Made by a program: the position numbers and the translations under genes. From an uncultured Thermoproteaceae archaeon (GTDB taxonomy: Archaea; Thermoproteota; Thermoprotei; Thermoproteales; Thermocladiaceae): a DNA stretch of 24,000 bases. The DNA is taken from positions 412,163 to 436,162 of the forward strand of contig CAYMHS010000001.1 in NCBI GenBank assembly GCA_964390355.1, read 5' to 3'. Shown piece by piece: positions 4,728-8,931 of the stretch. A model generated the notes under the pieces. That model worked only from the letters and a program-made list of their open reading frames with translations. It did not search any database and was not told the origin of the DNA. Every line of letters begins with the position of its first letter. Position 1 is the first letter of the stretch.

Positions 4728-5978
4728 TCACTCTCCAAACTTCTCTTGTCTTCCTAAATAATTCGTTATTATTGGCATTAAGTCAAGCCCCTTAAGAACT
4801 CCCCAAAATCCTTCACTACAGGCCTTTTCACAGTATTTACTTACTTCGTCTCTAAATAAGTCAGGTCCCCACATCATTATTGGTACAGGATCACCTGTAT
4901 GGTCTTTAACTTTTACGGGTGTTGCATGATCACATGTGATTACTATGTACGTATTATCTGGTACTTTCTCAAGAACTCTTCTTAAAGCTGCATCTACTTG
5001 TTCAATAATCCTTATCTTACCCATAACATCTCCGTCATGACTTGCAGAGTCTGTTGGTTTAACATGAAGAACAACAATATCATAATTACTTAAAGCCTTA
5101 ACAGCTTCTTCAAAGGCCCTATTATAATCGTCCGTCTTTGCTCCTCGATAGCCTGGTACATCTATGACATCAAAGCCTAAAGCTTTGCCAATACCTTTAA
5201 TGACAGCAATTCCAGCAATCATAGAGCACCTAATGTTGTACACTTCATTTATTGGCTTAATTTTTGGTAAAATACCTGCACCTCTAAGAAGTATCATATT
5301 TATTAAGGGTTTTCCTTCTCTTCTTCTAGTAATGTTAATTTCAGATTGACTTAACTTTTCATACACAAGTTTTGTAAATTCTTGAAGTATTTTGCTTGTT
5401 CTTTTAGCTTCTTCAGAATCATCTAATGGTTTTCCATCAAGAACTCTCTTATTAATGGCGTGAGGATCAGTGTTACCTACTCTATATGATATTTTCTCAC
5501 CTCTAAGTATGAGTACACCTCTATGTTCTGTTGTGTGTTTATATATTAACTCCACGCCATACTTCTCATTTATTATCTTTCCAATATCCTCATTTATTAT
5601 CCTCTCAATCTCTCTAGCCTCTTCAGGATTTACATATCTACCTGCTCTTCTATCAATTACAATTAAGTCATTATTAACAGTTGCTACATTAGTTCTAAAA
5701 GCAATATCACCTGGTCTTAAATCTACACCAGCACCTAAAGCTTCAAAAGGTCCTCTACCTGTATAATATCTGTAAGGATCGTATCCAAAAAGCGCTAAAT
5801 GTGCAACATCACTTCCAGGCCTTACTCCAGGACTAATGGCATAGAGTAATCCACAAGATCCTTCACTGGTAAGTCTATCAATTGTTGGTTTTTGTGCGAC
5901 TTCAAGTGGGGTTTTTCTACCTAGCTCAAGTAATGGTCTATCAGCTGCGCCATCAAGTATAATGATTAATGCCTGCAT
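4728..5978 (-). CDS. apgM: 2,3-bisphosphoglycerate-independent phosphoglycerate mutase, archaeal type
   Basis: It is 416 aa with 'IIILDGAADRP', 'HVKPTDSASHDGD' and 'ITCDHATP', the metal/phosphoserine-site motifs of the archaeal iPGM (ApgM) family. Confidence 0.85.
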   Translation of the reverse strand: MQALIIILDGAADRPLLELGRKTPLEVAQKPTIDRLTSEGSCGLLYAISPGVRPGSDVAHLALFGYDPYRYYTGRGPFEALGAGVDLRPGDIAFRTNVATVNNDLIVIDRRAGRYVNPEEAREIERIINEDIGKIINEKYGVELIYKHTTEHRGVLILRGEKISYRVGNTDPHAINKRVLDGKPLDDSEEAKRTSKILQEFTKLVYEKLSQSEINITRRREGKPLINMILLRGAGILPKIKPINEVYNIRCSMIAGIAVIKGIGKALGFDVIDVPGYRGAKTDDYNRAFEEAVKALSNYDIVVLHVKPTDSASHDGDVMGKIRIIEQVDAALRRVLEKVPDNTYIVITCDHATPVKVKDHTGDPVPIMMWGPDLFRDEVSKYCEKACSEGFWGVLKGLDLMPIITNYLGRQEKFGE

Positions 5979-6132
5979 GATGAGAGAATTAGTACATAAT
6001 ATTTAAGTATTGTTTCCTCACTGACGTACTATAAACAACTTCCATTACCATTGCAAGAAGTATAGGTAAAATGTAACTATGCGGACTGTTCTTGGTGTGG
6101 TGGTAAGTTTATATCTTGAAGTATATTTGAAG

Positions 6133-7269
6133 TTATTTTGATAGTTTTAAAATACCTTTTCTAGCAATTAATATTGCTGATACTGTATGTTTATCTAGTC
6201 CAAATTTTCTCATAATTTCTTTATGTTCTTTACTTGATGATGTGCCTTTAGGACTTACGTAAGTTACTTGTAATGCATATAGTGGTGCTTTCCATGAAAT
6301 TCTCTCAATTATTGAATTTCTAAATATTGAAATTTTGTAATTATACTTTTCATGTTTTCTATCTTCTTTATTTCTAATCCAGAAGTATTTTAGATAACCA
6401 ATTATTTTAGGATTTTCAAGTACAATAGTTGAAACACCGTGATGATAAGCATATCTTAAACATTCATGTATTGCTTGACCAATAACACTCCAAGCAGTTT
6501 TTCTAGGAAATCCTCTAGAAGTAACTTCACTAAACCGAAAAGTCTTCTTATCAAGCAATTTCTCATCCTCATTAATTATTACAAGATTTATTCTATCAAC
6601 ATTAACGTCTATTCCTGCAATATTGTTTCCCAATGATTTATCAAATCTCTTCATAACTTGAACATAGAAATTATATGGAATCATTAATTGAACTTCACCA
6701 TAGAGATGAAAATTACAATCACAACCCATACCATAATCGTTAATGTAAATCCTGGCAGGATAACCAATTTCACCACTAAATGCTTTATTGATAAGTTCAT
6801 TAATTATTTTCTTATAGTATTTTGATACTTTAACATTAAGTTCTATTCCATAACTTCTCAAATGGTAATCATATACTAAGACTTCAACAGTATTCAAGTT
6901 TATGAAATGTACGTTTAAATTACCTTTCTTACTTTTCTCTTTGTCTGCCTTTGATTGAAATAATAACCAATTACTAAGTTCAACATCTTGAGTATTTACA
7001 CCTAAAGCAGGTATTGACTTAGGTGTTGAATGTATAAGTTTTCCAATACCTTCACAGTATCTACGATTTGGAAGAATTGAGTAACATTTTTCAACTGAAA
7101 GACTTAGAAAATCGTATTGAGAATATTTACATATCTTCTCATCCTGTTTAACAAGTTTTAATAATCTATGTGCACAAACCTTCGATAACTAAGCAGTTAA
7201 AAGAATAAGAAACGCACTTCTATCAACAACATGAAAAGGTAATCTAACAGTTATGTAGTCTAACTCCAT
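6133..7269 (-). pseudogene. TnpB / IS605-OrfB-like RuvC nuclease gene of 378 sense codons, interrupted by one in-frame TAG (7189-7191). It lacks a zinc ribbon.
   Basis: My own translation from ATG 7269 stays in frame with track ORF 6133-6897, whose 'M' is really a TTG Leu codon. There is a single stop at codon 27. RuvC-like motifs are 'IAGIDVNVDRINL' (D), 'STIVLENPK' (E), 'VTYVSPKGTSSS' and 'GLDKHTVSAILIARKG' (D). Only 11 aa lie where the CxxC...CxxC ribbon normally sits. A TATA at 7291-7302 is correctly spaced for a leaderless transcript. Confidence 0.7.
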
Positions 7270-7290
7270 TAGGACGATATGTACCGAAGG

Positions 7291-7302
7291 TTTTATATAA
7301 AA
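7291..7302. promoter_or_regulatory. Perfectly palindromic TATA element TTTTATATAAAA, a putative bidirectional promoter
   Basis: The sequence equals its own reverse complement. The core is centred about 26 nt from ATG 7269 on the minus strand and about 26 nt from the start of the GC-rich island (~7322-7325) on the plus strand. Confidence 0.55.
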
Positions 7303-7324
7303 ACTTTCTTTCTAAACTGAACTA

Positions 7325-7440
7325 GTGACCCGTTGGCGCGTGAGGGGGTTTGACCCCTCCAGTAGCCCACCAACGGGAAACCGCAATGAACCCGAGTGAG
7401 TTCTGCTAGTTTCTGAGGGTAGAAGTTACTCACTCGGAGA
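7325..7440 (+). ncRNA. Unclassified structured GC-rich RNA candidate with two hairpins; strand tentative
   Basis: It is the only strongly GC-rich block in an AT-rich window. Hairpin 1 has an 8-bp outer stem (7329-7336 / 7370-7377), an internal loop (CGCGU / CAGUAGCCCA) and a 6-bp inner stem (7342-7347 / 7354-7359) with loop GUUUGA. Hairpin 2 has a 10-bp perfect stem (7392-7401 / 7428-7437) and a 5-bp extension (7402-7406 / 7419-7423) containing a G7405-U7420 wobble that pairs only on the plus strand. A TATA is correctly spaced upstream on the plus strand. Confidence 0.5.
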
Positions 7441-7450
7441 GCACTAAGTA

Positions 7451-7786
7451 TTAGCTTTCCAAAACTTCGTCAATCCATTCAAGATAATTCCTTAAACCGT
7501 AAATGATAGGTATGGCTACGATTTCAGGTACTTCGTAGGGATGTACTTTCTTAACTTCATCTATAACCCTGTCGAGCATGTCAAGTCTTGATTTAATGAT
7601 GAGAAGATTTTCTTTAGCTTCCTCTATATCACCTTTCCACAGGAAAATACTTGAGACACTATTAATAATATTAACACATGCTGCAAGTCTTTCACTTACT
7701 AATGTTTTTGCAATTTTCTCTGCACTTTCTCTATCAGGTGTTGTTATTAGGATTATAATGTAAGTTCCTAAAGATGATGTTGTCAT
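7451..7786 (-). CDS. cutA: Divalent-cation tolerance protein CutA
   Basis: It is 111 aa with 'ITTPDRESAEKIAKTLVSERLAACVNI', 'FLWKGDIEEAKENLLIIKS' and 'HPYEVPEIVAIPI', the canonical CutA1 pattern. Confidence 0.85.
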   Translation of the reverse strand: MTTSSLGTYIIILITTPDRESAEKIAKTLVSERLAACVNIINSVSSIFLWKGDIEEAKENLLIIKSRLDMLDRVIDEVKKVHPYEVPEIVAIPIIYGLRNYLEWIDEVLES

Positions 7787-7818: not shown

Positions 7819-8931
7819 TTACGGTAAATCAATAATTTTAGAGTTAAACTTTCCACTACATATATACTCCATGTAGAGCTTTAACTTACACAAATTTTCT
7901 CTCTTGATGATTATTAAGACCATGTTTAGGCATGTCTTAAACTTACATAGATTTCTCAGCTTTTCTATCAATACTCTAACGCTTGGTGCATAGTAATCGT
8001 TATCTACAATTAACAATTCGTAATTAATAAATGCAAAAATTTTATCAAAACCTCTATACTTTAGCATCAACCTCTCATCATCCGATTTAAGTTCAAGATT
8101 ATCTATAGGTATCTCAAGAATGTTTTGTATCTGATGCTTTTTATCACTACTACTTAATAAATAGTTCATTATCAGCTTCATAATAGATGGTTTACACTTC
8201 TCATGAATGGTATCAATCTTAAGATGGCTCTTAAAGTTTCCCAAATATTTCTCAACATCTTTACACATCTTCATACATATGAAGTTTCTTGAAGATAATA
8301 TCATGTTTATAAGTCTACACGTGTAATTGATTTCATCTCTTCTAGTCATTCCATAACTCTCCATGACAGATTTTACTGTATTCTCAATGTTAAAGTGATC
8401 GTTAATTACTATCGTATCTACTATTTGTCTTAACACTTTATTTTTCATGATTAAGGTGAAGAGTAGATCAAGCACTTCCTCTATCCTATTCTCTTTTAGT
8501 AACTTGCCGATCTCTTTAGCCTCAGCACTTAAATGTCCATTTTGAGTGAGACCTAATGCCTTTAAGGTTGGTAGAATCACTCTAATGTTGGATTTATTCA
8601 ATCCCTTATCGTTAAGGTATTTAACGAGCAATTCATTAACGTCATCTACTCCTAAATCAACGGCATATTTCAAAATCTCAAGTAATCTATCTGGAGGTAT
8701 TCTTATATACCATGAGTGTCTTTCCAGCATAGATGAGTCGATAGCATGGTTATTTCTATAGGTATTAATGAGATGCTGAGTTACGTATCTTATCAATAGA
8801 TCGAGGTCTCGAAATTTGCCAACTACACCGTCAGGTGTTTCTACTATGTATTCATTATCACTCTGATAGATATTTAGAATTAACTTCATTGTCAACACTA
8901 CATTAACTTTAAAGGAATATAAATCAAACAT
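7819..8931 (-). CDS. Hypothetical protein with no recognisable family
   Basis: It is a long uninterrupted ORF with a codon style like its neighbours. The probable true start is ATG 8889 (MKLILNIYQ..., 356 aa), because TATA-like TTTATATT (8923-8916, minus) is centred about 26-30 nt upstream of it. The segment 'ILPTLKALGLTQNGHLSAEAKEIGKLL' looks like a wHTH-type helix pair. Confidence 0.55.
   Translation of the reverse strand: MFDLYSFKVNVVLTMKLILNIYQSDNEYIVETPDGVVGKFRDLDLLIRYVTQHLINTYRNNHAIDSSMLERHSWYIRIPPDRLLEILKYAVDLGVDDVNELLVKYLNDKGLNKSNIRVILPTLKALGLTQNGHLSAEAKEIGKLLKENRIEEVLDLLFTLIMKNKVLRQIVDTIVINDHFNIENTVKSVMESYGMTRRDEINYTCRLINMILSSRNFICMKMCKDVEKYLGNFKSHLKIDTIHEKCKPSIMKLIMNYLLSSSDKKHQIQNILEIPIDNLELKSDDERLMLKYRGFDKIFAFINYELLIVDNDYYAPSVRVLIEKLRNLCKFKTCLNMVLIIIKRENLCKLKLYMEYICSGKFNSKIIDLP

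What the first reader, a model, noticed from the sequence alone, without database searches (positions are those of the whole stretch)
6133..7450. Locus-level hypothesis: ribbon-less TnpB-like gene paired with a divergently transcribed structured RNA
Canonical TnpB omega-RNAs overlap the 3' end of tnpB on the same strand. Here nothing structured is visible at the 3' end. Instead, a ~115-nt GC-rich two-hairpin RNA candidate sits 5' of the gene, most likely on the opposite strand, and shares one palindromic TATA element with it. If the two are functionally linked, this would be a non-canonical nuclease-RNA arrangement resembling a tracrRNA-like divergent layout. If not, the TnpB-like element simply inserted next to an independent orphan ncRNA gene. 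Both outcomes are informative. This is inference from adjacency only.
Basis: inference. Interest (0 to 1): 0.7.

Follow-up and report, generated by a model that had tools for sequence, protein, structure and literature searches.

The report
Archaeal TnpB transposon with back-to-front guide-RNA gene
The structured RNA and the TnpB-like gene belong to one small mobile element found in many hot-spring archaea. Its guide-like RNA has its own gene, read away from the nuclease gene and out of the opposite end of the element, a layout I found described nowhere for TnpB; the copy in this window is broken.

Summary
Window 6133-7269 (-) encodes a TnpB/Cas12-fold protein with no zinc ribbon. It carries one nonsense codon, TGG to TAG, at a conserved Trp (7189-7191). 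Window 7322-7445 (+) is a GC-rich two-domain RNA.

The two features are linked. A covariance model built from nine distant copies finds the same RNA directly upstream of the gene, on the opposite strand, in 54 of 59 archaeal loci, including Thermococcales.

- **Structure:** 31 of 32 base pairs covary.
- **Strand:** conserved U·G pairs and composition-controlled folding both favour the anti-gene strand.
- **Motif:** a K-turn-like motif closes the 3' domain.
- **Promoter:** a TATA box lies 22-29 nt from the RNA 5' end in 46 of 47 loci.

Similarity between copies stops exactly at the RNA 3' end (…AACGGU) and about 40-60 nt past the stop codon. This defines a multi-copy unit of about 1.3 kb with no transposase gene.

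The best reading is an omega-RNA-like guide transcribed outward into flanking DNA. This is canonical TnpB logic with the gene inverted relative to its RNA. Guide function is inferred, not shown.

The protein fits the published RIIIr-4 TnpB clade (RuvC-III Asp replaced by His, no zinc finger). I found neither an Rfam family nor a paper describing this RNA. The window copy looks defunct.

The parts
6082..7445 (.). Whole mobile unit (about 1.36 kb): gene-distal tail, TnpB-like pseudogene, bidirectional promoter, RNA gene.
   Evidence: Pairwise blastn of copies in other loci always covers RNA + gene + a tail of about 40-60 nt and stops there. The window ends are placed by analogy with L076. An independent Logan contig breaks at 7448, 3 nt beyond the RNA end. 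The gene-distal end is accurate to about ±3 nt.
6133..7269 (-). TnpB/Cas12-fold gene with no zinc ribbon and His in place of the RuvC-III Asp; a pseudogene in this window.
   Evidence: 218 homologues at 47-58% identity, 370-381 aa, precomputed Pfam PF27229 SSO2105_N. An AF2 model of homologue P0004 has pLDDT 89. Foldseek hits Cas12f at E 4e-10, and also Cas12k, ISFba1 TnpB and RuvC. D221 and E285 are invariant and H361 sits in GLDRHTASA. NCBIfam TIGR01766 gives E 3e-4, below its cut-off.
7189..7191 (-). In-frame TAG at the position of a nearly invariant Trp (codon 27).
   Evidence: Translation and alignment A1. The sequence is identical in a second assembly, L071.
6082..6132 (-). Gene-distal tail ending ...GAACAGTCCG. 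This corresponds to the family terminus ...AAACAG(N0-8)(A/G)CCC.
   Evidence: An 11-nt tandem duplication at 6110-6138 lengthens the tail here.
7291..7303 (.). Palindromic TATA-like box, a candidate shared bidirectional promoter.
   Evidence: Its centre is 25 nt from the RNA 5' end and 28 nt from the ATG. A TATA-like box lies 22-29 nt from the RNA 5' end in 46 of 47 family loci. The function is inferred from archaeal promoter geometry.
7322..7445 (+). Structured RNA gene (omega-RNA-like scaffold): 5' tail CUAGUGA, domain P1, junction AAA, K-turn-like loop, domain P2, 3' strand.
   Evidence: CM R1, built from other subfamilies only, hits exactly here on the plus strand (19.6 bits; E 0.049 in 504 kb, 0.0028 in 29 kb). 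There is no Rfam family and no tRNA.
7329..7377 (+). P1: outer stem CCCGUUGG/CCAACGGG enclosing the hairpin GAGGGG-loop-CCCCUC.
   Evidence: Fold. The outer stem covaries across subfamilies: 12 of 12 pairs show double changes.
7380..7391 (+). 5' strand of the K-turn-like motif: ACCGC-AAU-GA-AC.
   Evidence: NNN-GA follows the closing stem in 58 of 58 copies.
7392..7437 (+). P2 hairpin: CCGAGUGAGU ... ACUCACUCGG.
   Evidence: Fold; helices 5 and 6 covary.
7438..7445 (+). 3' strand AGA-GCACU. The GA of the K-turn-like loop is present, but the closing stem is broken (GCACU where the closest relative has GCGGU).
   Evidence: L076 reads CGA-GCGGU, closes the stem and folds at z -9.35. The window folds at z -3.5 with no closing stem.
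7446..7465 (+). Flank where a guide would lie if the RNA reads out of the element. It is antisense to the cutA stop codon and 3' end.
   Evidence: Position only. In the family, similarity between copies ends at ...AACGGU and the following bases are unrelated. The guide role is inferred.

Best explanation
The window holds a decayed copy of a small non-autonomous insertion sequence of hyperthermophilic archaea. The unit is about 1.3 kb and has two genes transcribed away from each other, apparently from one central TATA box. One gene encodes a TnpB-family protein with no zinc ribbon and His in RuvC-III. The other encodes a structured RNA of about 95-170 nt on the opposite strand. The RNA ends exactly at the transposon end, so transcription continues into flanking DNA. 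I propose the RNA is this lineage's omega-RNA. P1, P2 and the K-turn-like motif would form the scaffold bound by the protein, perhaps with L7Ae, and the adjoining flank would serve as the guide. The complex could then recognise the empty donor site, as canonical TnpB does. Topologically this is the canonical TnpB element with the gene inverted relative to its RNA and right end, so the RNA no longer overlaps the coding sequence and has its own promoter. Shown: co-occurrence, RNA structure, strand, element boundaries, multi-copy state and protein fold. Inferred: transcription start, binding, guide use, nuclease activity and L7Ae involvement. In the window the system is probably dead: the gene has a nonsense codon at Trp27 and the RNA's closing stem has two mismatches.
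For: Protein. Homologues fold as WED/REC/RuvC proteins that match Cas12f, Cas12k and TnpB. The catalytic D and E are invariant, His is invariant at the RuvC-III position, and there is no zinc ribbon. These are the features published for TnpB clade RIIIr-4 (PMC10691335).

Linkage. A GC peak lies 60-160 nt upstream of nearly every homologue. CM R1 finds the RNA upstream and antisense in 54 of 59 archaeal loci, including Thermococcus and Pyrococcus.

RNA reality. 92.9% of cells are paired, against 70.5% in shuffles and 40-55% in slid controls. 31 of 32 pairs show compensatory changes.

Strand. The anti-gene strand folds 10 kcal/mol better in 41 of 43 copies. After composition control, z is -4.99 against -3.49, lower in 37 of 43 copies (p 2e-7). 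U·G pairs in P1 are conserved. The GA-rich K-turn-like loop exists only on that strand.

Promoter. A TATA-like box lies 22-29 nt from the RNA 5' end in 46 of 47 loci.

Mobile unit. Several copies occur per MAG. Similarity between copies begins exactly at ACCGTT, the RNA 3' end, and ends at ...CCC after the gene. A gene-less miniature retains both ends, the promoter and the RNA (L045 6520-6814). A contig breaks at the window's RNA end.

Bacterial relatives. They share the His and lack the zinc ribbon, and they keep a conserved structured region of about 220 nt downstream on the gene strand, the canonical layout.
Against: There are no expression data, no RNA-protein binding data and no cleavage data. 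No empty site was recovered, so the exact ends and any target-adjacent motif are unresolved. No transposase gene is associated, so the mobilisation mechanism is unknown. RuvC-III carries His rather than Asp, and the neighbouring Asp varies, so nuclease activity is uncertain. About 30% of copies read GAA rather than NGA on the 3' strand of the K-turn-like loop. The covariation alignment was fitted to the model structure. A co-evolving inverted repeat links the P2 loop to the stop-codon region, and the simple guide model does not explain it. The window copy alone shows no strand preference.
Confidence: 0.6

Rival explanations
1. The RNA binds the protein or regulates the element but supplies no guide. 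It could be a structural cofactor, an inhibitor or antitoxin-like RNA, a transposition regulator, or the partner of a nuclease-dead regulator like TldR.
For: RuvC-III is non-canonical (His) and the adjacent Asp is not invariant. Nothing here shows that the flank is used. The P2 loop matches the gene's 3' end, which hints at a role tied to the element itself.
Against: The scaffold ends exactly at the transposon boundary in every subfamily, as canonical omega-RNAs do. Bacterial relatives show the canonical scaffold/flank boundary. The RNA does not overlap the mRNA, so it cannot act as a classical cis-antisense regulator. The elements are multi-copy and mobile rather than domesticated single genes.
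Confidence: 0.2
2. The conserved structure is mainly a DNA feature of the transposon end, such as single-strand hairpins or transposase-binding sites, and any transcript is incidental.
For: IS200/IS605 transposases recognise strand-specific DNA hairpins at the ends (established knowledge). Subterminal inverted repeats link the P2 loop with the other end in 17 of 42 elements.
Against: The structure is 95-170 nt, multi-helix and GC-enriched inside 30-40% GC genomes. 31 of 32 pairs covary, and U·G pairs are conserved. A GA/GA K-turn-like loop is present. A TATA box sits at promoter distance from the conserved 5' end in 46 of 47 loci. These are RNA-gene properties, and the two roles can coexist.
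Confidence: 0.1
3. The RNA is an independent host ncRNA gene next to cutA, and the TnpB-like element inserted beside it by chance.
For: Only adjacency in this window.
Against: The RNA travels with the gene in 54 of 59 loci with unrelated flanks. No other copy is next to cutA. The RNA lies inside the repeated unit.
Confidence: 0.01

Closest known systems
Canonical IS200/IS605 TnpB with omega-RNA (reRNA), e.g. ISDra2
   Same: The effector is a compact RuvC-fold protein of about 375 aa. The element is a multi-copy IS. A structured RNA has its 3' end at a transposon end, so flank sequence follows the scaffold.
   Different: In the canonical element the omega-RNA overlaps the 3' end of tnpB on the same strand and is processed from the mRNA (PMC10278001; PMC10691335). 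Here the RNA is a separate gene on the opposite strand at the gene's 5' side, with its own promoter. There is no zinc ribbon, RuvC-III carries His, and the RNA has a K-turn-like motif.
TnpB major clade RIIIr-4 (Altae-Tran et al. 2023, PMC10691335)
   Same: The catalytic Asp of RuvC-III is replaced by His and the C4 zinc finger is absent. Members occur in archaea and bacteria.
   Different: That study aligned only downstream regions when looking for guide RNAs, and describes omega-RNA as lying downstream of tnpB. It reports no upstream antisense RNA. I did not test phylogenetic placement of this family in RIIIr-4.
Bacillus/Neobacillus relatives found here (L065-L067, 522 aa)
   Same: 24-28% identical to the window protein. 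They also lack the zinc ribbon and carry His (SVHEAAS).
   Different: Their conserved structured non-coding region of about 220 nt lies downstream on the gene strand, with a sharp boundary at the end. That is the canonical layout.
IscB/IsrB omega-RNA
   Same: The RNA lies on the 5' side of the effector gene.
   Different: IscB RNAs are on the same strand as the gene, with the guide at the RNA 5' end (PMC10691335). Here the RNA is antisense and the guide position would be 3'. The protein family also differs.
tracrRNAs of type V CRISPR-Cas (Cas12b/e/f)
   Same: A separately transcribed structured RNA is encoded next to a Cas12/TnpB-fold effector. The closest structural matches are Cas12f and Cas12k.
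   Different: The window has no CRISPR array and no anti-repeat. The RNA sits inside a mobile element and abuts its end.
Archaeal K-turn RNAs bound by L7Ae (C/D-box and H/ACA sRNAs, RNase P RNA)
   Same: The sequence pattern matches: closing stem, 3-nt bulge, tandem GA/AG.
   Different: No C/D or H/ACA boxes were seen by inspection. About 30% of copies deviate on one strand. L7Ae binding is untested.
IS110 bridge RNA
   Same: A transposon-encoded RNA has a loop that matches a sequence at the element's other end.
   Different: The protein is unrelated (TnpB fold, not a DEDD recombinase). The match is identity to the gene-sense strand, and no second target loop is known. This is a resemblance only.

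Membership tests
TnpB/Cas12 superfamily | WED-REC-RuvC architecture | tested here: met
   The AF2 model of homologue P0004 has pLDDT 89 and pTM 0.82. Full-length Foldseek matches include Cas12f (E 4e-10, TM about 0.5-0.58), Cas12k, Cas12m and ISFba1 TnpB 8iaz (E 4.5e-5).
TnpB/Cas12 superfamily | RuvC catalytic triad D-E-D | tested here: not met
   D221 and E285 are invariant. The RuvC-III position aligned to DxN carries an invariant His (GLDRHTASA). The preceding Asp is G or N in some members. This matches a published rearranged clade rather than an obvious inactivation.
TnpB/Cas12 superfamily | C4 zinc finger (TNB) between RuvC-II and RuvC-III | tested here: not met
   No Cys pairs occur in that segment in any of the 36 or 54 aligned members.
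TnpB/Cas12 superfamily | Significant sequence-profile match to curated TnpB models or solved TnpB/Cas12 chains | tested here: inconclusive
   The local Pfam copy gives no hit. NCBIfam TIGR01766 scores 21 bits at E 3e-4, below its cut-off of 32. A profile search of PDB sequences finds nothing at E up to 1.
Canonical TnpB-omega-RNA element | Guide RNA scaffold overlapping or downstream of the tnpB 3' end on the same strand | tested here: not met
   Only a short tail of about 40-60 nt follows the stop codon. The conserved RNA is upstream on the opposite strand.
Canonical TnpB-omega-RNA element | RNA scaffold 3' end coincides with a transposon end, followed by non-conserved flank | tested here: met
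   Similarity between copies stops at ...AACGGU in all subfamilies compared.
Canonical TnpB-omega-RNA element | RNA-guided, TAM-dependent DNA cleavage | not testable with these tools
   This needs biochemistry. A candidate end motif, (T)AGGGY in RNA-sense orientation, was seen but was not separated from the element terminus.
IS200/IS605 family element | Association with Y1 (or serine) TnpA, at least in some copies | tested here: not met
   Clustering all ORFs of 80 aa or more from 66 loci shows no recurrent neighbour other than the gene itself. Neighbour Pfam lists show no Y1_Tnp. Copies behave as non-autonomous units. Whole genomes were not searched.
TnpB clade RIIIr-4 (PMC10691335) | RuvC-III Asp to His, and loss of the C4 zinc finger | tested here: met
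   One search compared with the description read.
TnpB clade RIIIr-4 (PMC10691335) | Phylogenetic placement within that clade | not tested
   The reference sequences of the study are not available here.
Pfam PF27229 SSO2105_N | Match to the family model | tested here: inconclusive
   All full-length homologues carry the precomputed PF27229 hit. The local Pfam copy returned no such hit for the window protein, possibly because the model is absent from it.
K-turn (L7Ae-binding) motif | Closing stem, 3-nt bulge, tandem sheared G·A/A·G | tested here: inconclusive
   NNN-GA is present on the 5' strand in 58 of 58 copies. The 3' strand reads NGA in 37 of 54 and GAA in 16. The closing stem covaries: CCGU/ACGG, CCGC/GCGG, GCGU/ACGC. 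Geometry and L7Ae binding cannot be tested here. The window copy has a broken closing stem.
tracrRNA / CRISPR-Cas type V | CRISPR array and anti-repeat complementarity | tested here: not met
   The window has no repeat array and no Rfam CRISPR or tracr hit.
Any Rfam family or tRNA | Match at the gathering threshold, or a tRNA model | tested here: not met
   There are 0 hits at the gathering threshold and only chance-level hits at E about 7-8. ARAGORN finds nothing.

The most novel reading that the evidence does not exclude
The RNA may carry two specificities, beyond being a divergently encoded omega-RNA. The 3' flank would act as a guide. In addition, the large AU-rich apical loop of P2 has a sequence (18-26 nt) that co-evolves with, and is identical to, the gene-sense sequence around the stop codon at the other end of the element. 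That loop could base-pair with the opposite strand of the element's far end. One RNA would then recognise both the flank (target or donor joint) and the element's own other end, in the manner of a bridge RNA but on a TnpB-fold protein.
Probability: 0.07. Interest if true: 0.9.

Novelty: new variant of a known kind. Interest (0 to 1): 0.68.

Why it matters
All TnpB and Fanzor systems described in the papers I could read place the guide RNA at the 3' end of the gene, on the same strand. There the scaffold is constrained by coding sequence and is cut out of the mRNA.

In this lineage the RNA is a free-standing, divergently transcribed gene at the other end of the element. That would show the TnpB-RNA partnership can be uncoupled from the mRNA. 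Such an uncoupling is a step presumed on the way to separately encoded tracrRNA and crRNA in Cas12 systems.

The family would also offer three practical things:
- a thermostable, zinc-finger-less effector of about 375 aa with a 95-170 nt RNA that can be expressed independently;
- a test of whether the RuvC-III His variant cleaves DNA;
- a test of whether archaeal L7Ae is recruited to a guide RNA.

It also adds an RNA family that Rfam 15 does not cover.

Tried and rejected
- **Rfam and tRNA scans.** Rfam at the gathering threshold and at permissive E-values found nothing meaningful, and ARAGORN found nothing.
- **Other RNA classes.** By eye I considered a split or intron-containing tRNA, an H/ACA sRNA and a C/D-box sRNA. 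I dropped them: there is no T-arm, no ACA box after either hairpin and no D box.
- **nhmmer.** A search with the window RNA alone found only one weak hit, L056. A covariance model was needed.
- **RNAalifold.** On a plain MAFFT alignment of all 43 RNAs it recovered only the closing stem, because the variable hairpin interiors misalign.
- **Empty-site search.**
  - A metagenome scan with CutA returned one distant hit and used the cap.
  - Exact-protein look-ups of CutA and ApgM returned only the same insertion, plus a contig that ends at the element.
It was replaced by showing that no other copy is near cutA.
- **Other look-ups.** The PDB sequence-profile search found nothing. The look-up of the Vulcanisaeta protein P0099 failed because it is not on record.
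- **Literature.** Searches for SSO2105/ISC1316, PF27229, TnpB with K-turn or L7Ae, and divergent guide RNAs gave nothing relevant. My recollection that ISC1316 of Saccharolobus is this kind of element is unverified.
- **TAM.** No TAM could be separated from the conserved terminus (T)AGGGY.
Full report
**What is in the window.**
The window is AT-rich (about 30% GC) and looks like DNA of a hyperthermophilic archaeon. Between apgM (4728-5978, -) and cutA (7451-7786, -) lies an open reading frame on the minus strand. It runs from ATG 7267-7269 to the stop at 6133-6135, which is 378 codons with one in-frame TAG at 7189-7191.

Upstream of it lie an A/T palindrome (7291-7303) and a GC-rich stretch. 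That stretch folds into two hairpin domains on either strand (z about -3.5). Rfam 15 and ARAGORN recognise nothing there.

**The protein.**
- **Homologues.** The collection holds 218 homologues of 370-381 aa at 47-58% identity. They come from Desulfurococcales, Thermoproteales (Vulcanisaeta, Caldivirga), Ignisphaera, Staphylothermus, and also Pyrococcus and Thermococcus. All carry the precomputed Pfam family PF27229, named SSO2105_N.
- **The stop codon.** The window's TAG falls on a nearly invariant Trp, so it is a TGG to TAG nonsense mutation. It is identical in a second assembly.
- **Sequence-level links to TnpB.** These are weak: TIGR01766 at E 3e-4 and nothing among PDB sequences.
- **Fold.** An AlphaFold model of a homologue is confident (pLDDT 89, pTM 0.82). 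It matches Cas12f, Cas12k, Cas12m and ISFba1 TnpB over its full length.
- **Active site.** The RuvC-I Asp and RuvC-II Glu are invariant. At RuvC-III the family reads GLDRHTASA with an invariant His where typical TnpBs have the Asp of DRDxN. No zinc ribbon is present.
- **Published clade.** These two features define the major TnpB clade RIIIr-4 of Altae-Tran et al. 2023, who considered the clade probably active (PMC10691335). I could not test phylogenetic membership.

**The RNA travels with the gene.**
One scan of species-representative genomes returned 69 loci. Several MAGs hold three or four copies, and many copies sit at contig ends. Nearly every locus has a GC peak 60-160 nt upstream of the start codon.

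Read on the strand opposite the gene, these regions share one architecture:
- a 5' tail UUGGUGA;
- a 12-bp stem P1 with a variable interior;
- a short junction;
- the motif CCGU-GAU-GA-ACC;
- a second hairpin P2;
- the 3' strand GG-N-GA-ACGGU.

I built a covariance model from nine copies of a single subfamily. It finds this RNA directly upstream of the gene, on the anti-gene strand, in 54 of the 59 archaeal loci where upstream sequence exists. It also finds it at window 7322-7445 (+) with 19.6 bits, and later in Pyrococcus kukulkanii and in the window's closest relative L076. No other copy lies next to cutA. The 'independent orphan ncRNA' alternative is excluded.

**It is an RNA, and it is on the anti-gene strand.**
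- **Covariation.** On the model-guided alignment 92.9% of cells form standard pairs, against 70.5% in shuffles and 40-55% when partners are slid. 31 of 32 pairs show compensatory changes. The alignment is fitted to the structure, which inflates these numbers somewhat. The model, however, came from one subfamily and the compensatory changes come from the others.
- **Wobble pairs.** Three adjacent P1 pairs are predominantly U·G. They would be A·C mismatches on the other strand.
- **Folding asymmetry.** The anti-gene strand folds on average 10 kcal/mol better, in 41 of 43 copies. With dinucleotide-shuffle controls the mean z-scores are -4.99 against -3.49, lower in 37 of 43 copies (p 2e-7).
- **K-turn-like loop.** The internal loop that closes the 3' domain has the sequence pattern of a K-turn. 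NNN-GA follows the closing stem in 58 of 58 copies. NGA precedes the stem on the other strand in 37 of 54 copies and GAA in 16. The closing stem covaries as CCGU/ACGG, CCGC/GCGG and GCGU/ACGC.
- **Open point.** Whether L7Ae binds is untested.

**Promoter geometry.**
The spacer between the RNA 5' end and the start codon has a median of 49 nt. In 46 of 47 loci it contains a TATA-like box 22-29 nt from the RNA 5' end, and usually 20-25 nt (sometimes 36-39 nt) from the start codon. In the window the box centre is 25 nt from the RNA 5' end and 28 nt from the ATG. Archaeal TATA boxes sit about 26 nt upstream of start sites (established knowledge). One central box could therefore serve both directions. 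This is inference.

**One mobile unit.**
blastn between copies consistently aligns 1.29-1.35 kb. In gene orientation the similarity begins exactly at ACCGTT, which is the RNA 3' end ...AACGGU. It ends 40-60 nt after the stop codon at ...CAG(N0-8)(A/G)CCC, usually followed by T.

No transposase or other gene recurs next to the unit in 66 loci, so the copies are non-autonomous. L045 6520-6814 is a gene-less miniature of about 295 bp. It keeps both termini, the last 70 nt or so of the gene, the promoter and a complete RNA. In the window's own population a Logan contig ends 3 nt beyond the predicted RNA end.

**Mechanistic reading.**
The scaffold's 3' end coincides with a transposon end, and flank follows it. 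The most economical reading is an omega-RNA transcribed outward, taking its guide from the flank. That is what canonical TnpB elements do at their right end.

The distant Bacillus and Neobacillus relatives (same His, no zinc ribbon) still have the canonical layout. They keep a conserved structured region of about 220 nt downstream on the gene strand, ending sharply at the element end. The archaeal family thus looks like the same system with the gene inverted relative to RNA and end.

Nothing here shows transcription, binding, guide use or cleavage. I put 0.6 on this full model and about 0.95 on the narrower claim that RNA and gene are parts of one element.

**The window copy is decayed.**
- The gene has the nonsense codon.
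- Against its closest relative L076, the RNA's closing stem reads GCACU instead of GCGGU, which breaks two of five pairs. L076 folds at z -9.35 with the stem closed, while the window folds at z -3.5 without it.
- The gene-distal terminus is CAGTCCG rather than CAGCCCC.
- The tail carries an 11-nt tandem duplication.

**Unexplained.**
In 17 of 42 elements the apical loop of P2 (RNA sense) is nearly identical to the gene-sense sequence around the stop codon. In L024 the match is 22 of 24 nt. The sequence differs between subfamilies but the match is kept, and a direct-orientation control is at shuffle level.

This subterminal inverted repeat could be a transposase site hosted in an RNA loop, a trace of an inverted duplication of an ancestral 3' omega-RNA, or a functional second specificity. 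It is not detectable in the window.

**Prior knowledge.**
The library searches found the clade description (PMC10691335). They also found repeated statements that TnpB omega-RNAs lie at the gene's 3' end, in PMC10691335, PMC10278001 and PMC12817955. They found no report of an upstream, antisense, separately promoted RNA for any TnpB. The library is incomplete, so this is absence of evidence.

**Verdict.**
The element is a new variant of a known kind. The window's own copy is a relic, and the interest lies in the family it reveals.

Noticed in passing
L024 3157-3180 and 4414-4437; also L038 3806-3819/5063-5076, L003, L006, L021, L023, L043, L046, L047: A subterminal inverted repeat. The apical loop of RNA hairpin P2 is nearly identical to the gene-sense sequence around the stop codon (22 of 24 nt in L024). 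The match is significant in 17 of 42 elements. The sequence differs between subfamilies but the match is kept. It is not seen in the window copy.
   Followed up: partly
L045 6520-6814 (+): A gene-less miniature element of about 295 bp. It starts GGGCTGTTTCAG (the gene-distal terminus), keeps about 70 nt of the gene's 3' end, then the promoter and a complete RNA ending AACGGT. It looks like a MITE-type derivative.
   Followed up: partly
L008 3839-3986 (+) and L028 3162-3295 (+): A second RNA of another subtype lies in the same orientation as the gene. Its 3' end GAACGGT abuts ATATCCCTATG at the start of the gene. Intact elements read ...CGGGT|ATATCCCTATG there, so this looks like an insertion junction just after GGGT. 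The rest of the inserted element is missing.
   Followed up: partly
Spacer between TATA and start codon in most loci (e.g. L006 863-875); window about 7272-7285: A short palindrome sits just upstream of, or over, the start codon. It changes in a paired way between subfamilies: GGGTATATCCC, GGGGATATATACCCC, GGGGATTCCCC, GGGGCTATAGCC, GGATATATATCC. The window has a degenerate version (GGTACATATCGTCC). It may be an operator or a 5' mRNA hairpin.
   Followed up: no
window 7446-7448 (end of Logan contig L072): An independent assembly of run SRR7051321 breaks 3 nt past the predicted element end. This is expected at a repeat boundary or a polymorphic insertion.
   Followed up: partly
window 6110-6138: An 11-nt tandem duplication (TATATTTGAAG, 2.6 copies) spans the stop codon and tail of the pseudogene. 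It accounts for the longer tail compared with L076.
   Followed up: no
L065-L067, e.g. L066 3464-5032 gene and 5033-5254 non-coding: Neobacillus and Bacillus relatives (522 aa) also lack the zinc ribbon and carry His at RuvC-III. Their conserved structured non-coding region of about 220 nt is downstream on the gene strand (-79.9 against -66.5 kcal/mol) and ends sharply at TAACCAGG.
   Followed up: partly
L049 1682-2221 and 4001-4621; L001 about 100-190: Other decayed copies. In L049 the gene is split by an insertion of about 1.8 kb. In L001 the RNA has an internal deletion that removes P1.
   Followed up: no
L009 (minus-strand ORF, 414 aa) and four other loci; L074 7249-7536: Unrelated, canonical-looking TnpB ORFs and a Cas12f1-like_TNB fragment occur near some copies. 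These genomes therefore carry several TnpB lineages.
   Followed up: no
L004 5148-6410 (-): An apgM homologue (40% identical to the window's) abuts the gene-distal end of that element. The window element also lies 105 nt from apgM, but in a different relative orientation. This is probably coincidence.
   Followed up: no
window 7819-8931 (-): A 370-aa ORF next to cutA has no Pfam or NCBIfam match.
   Followed up: no
L076 flanks: 1-122 and 1468-1490: The two flanks of this element contain reverse-complementary words (AAACCACC and GGTGGTTT, the latter repeated). The element may have inserted into a palindromic or repeated site.
   Followed up: no
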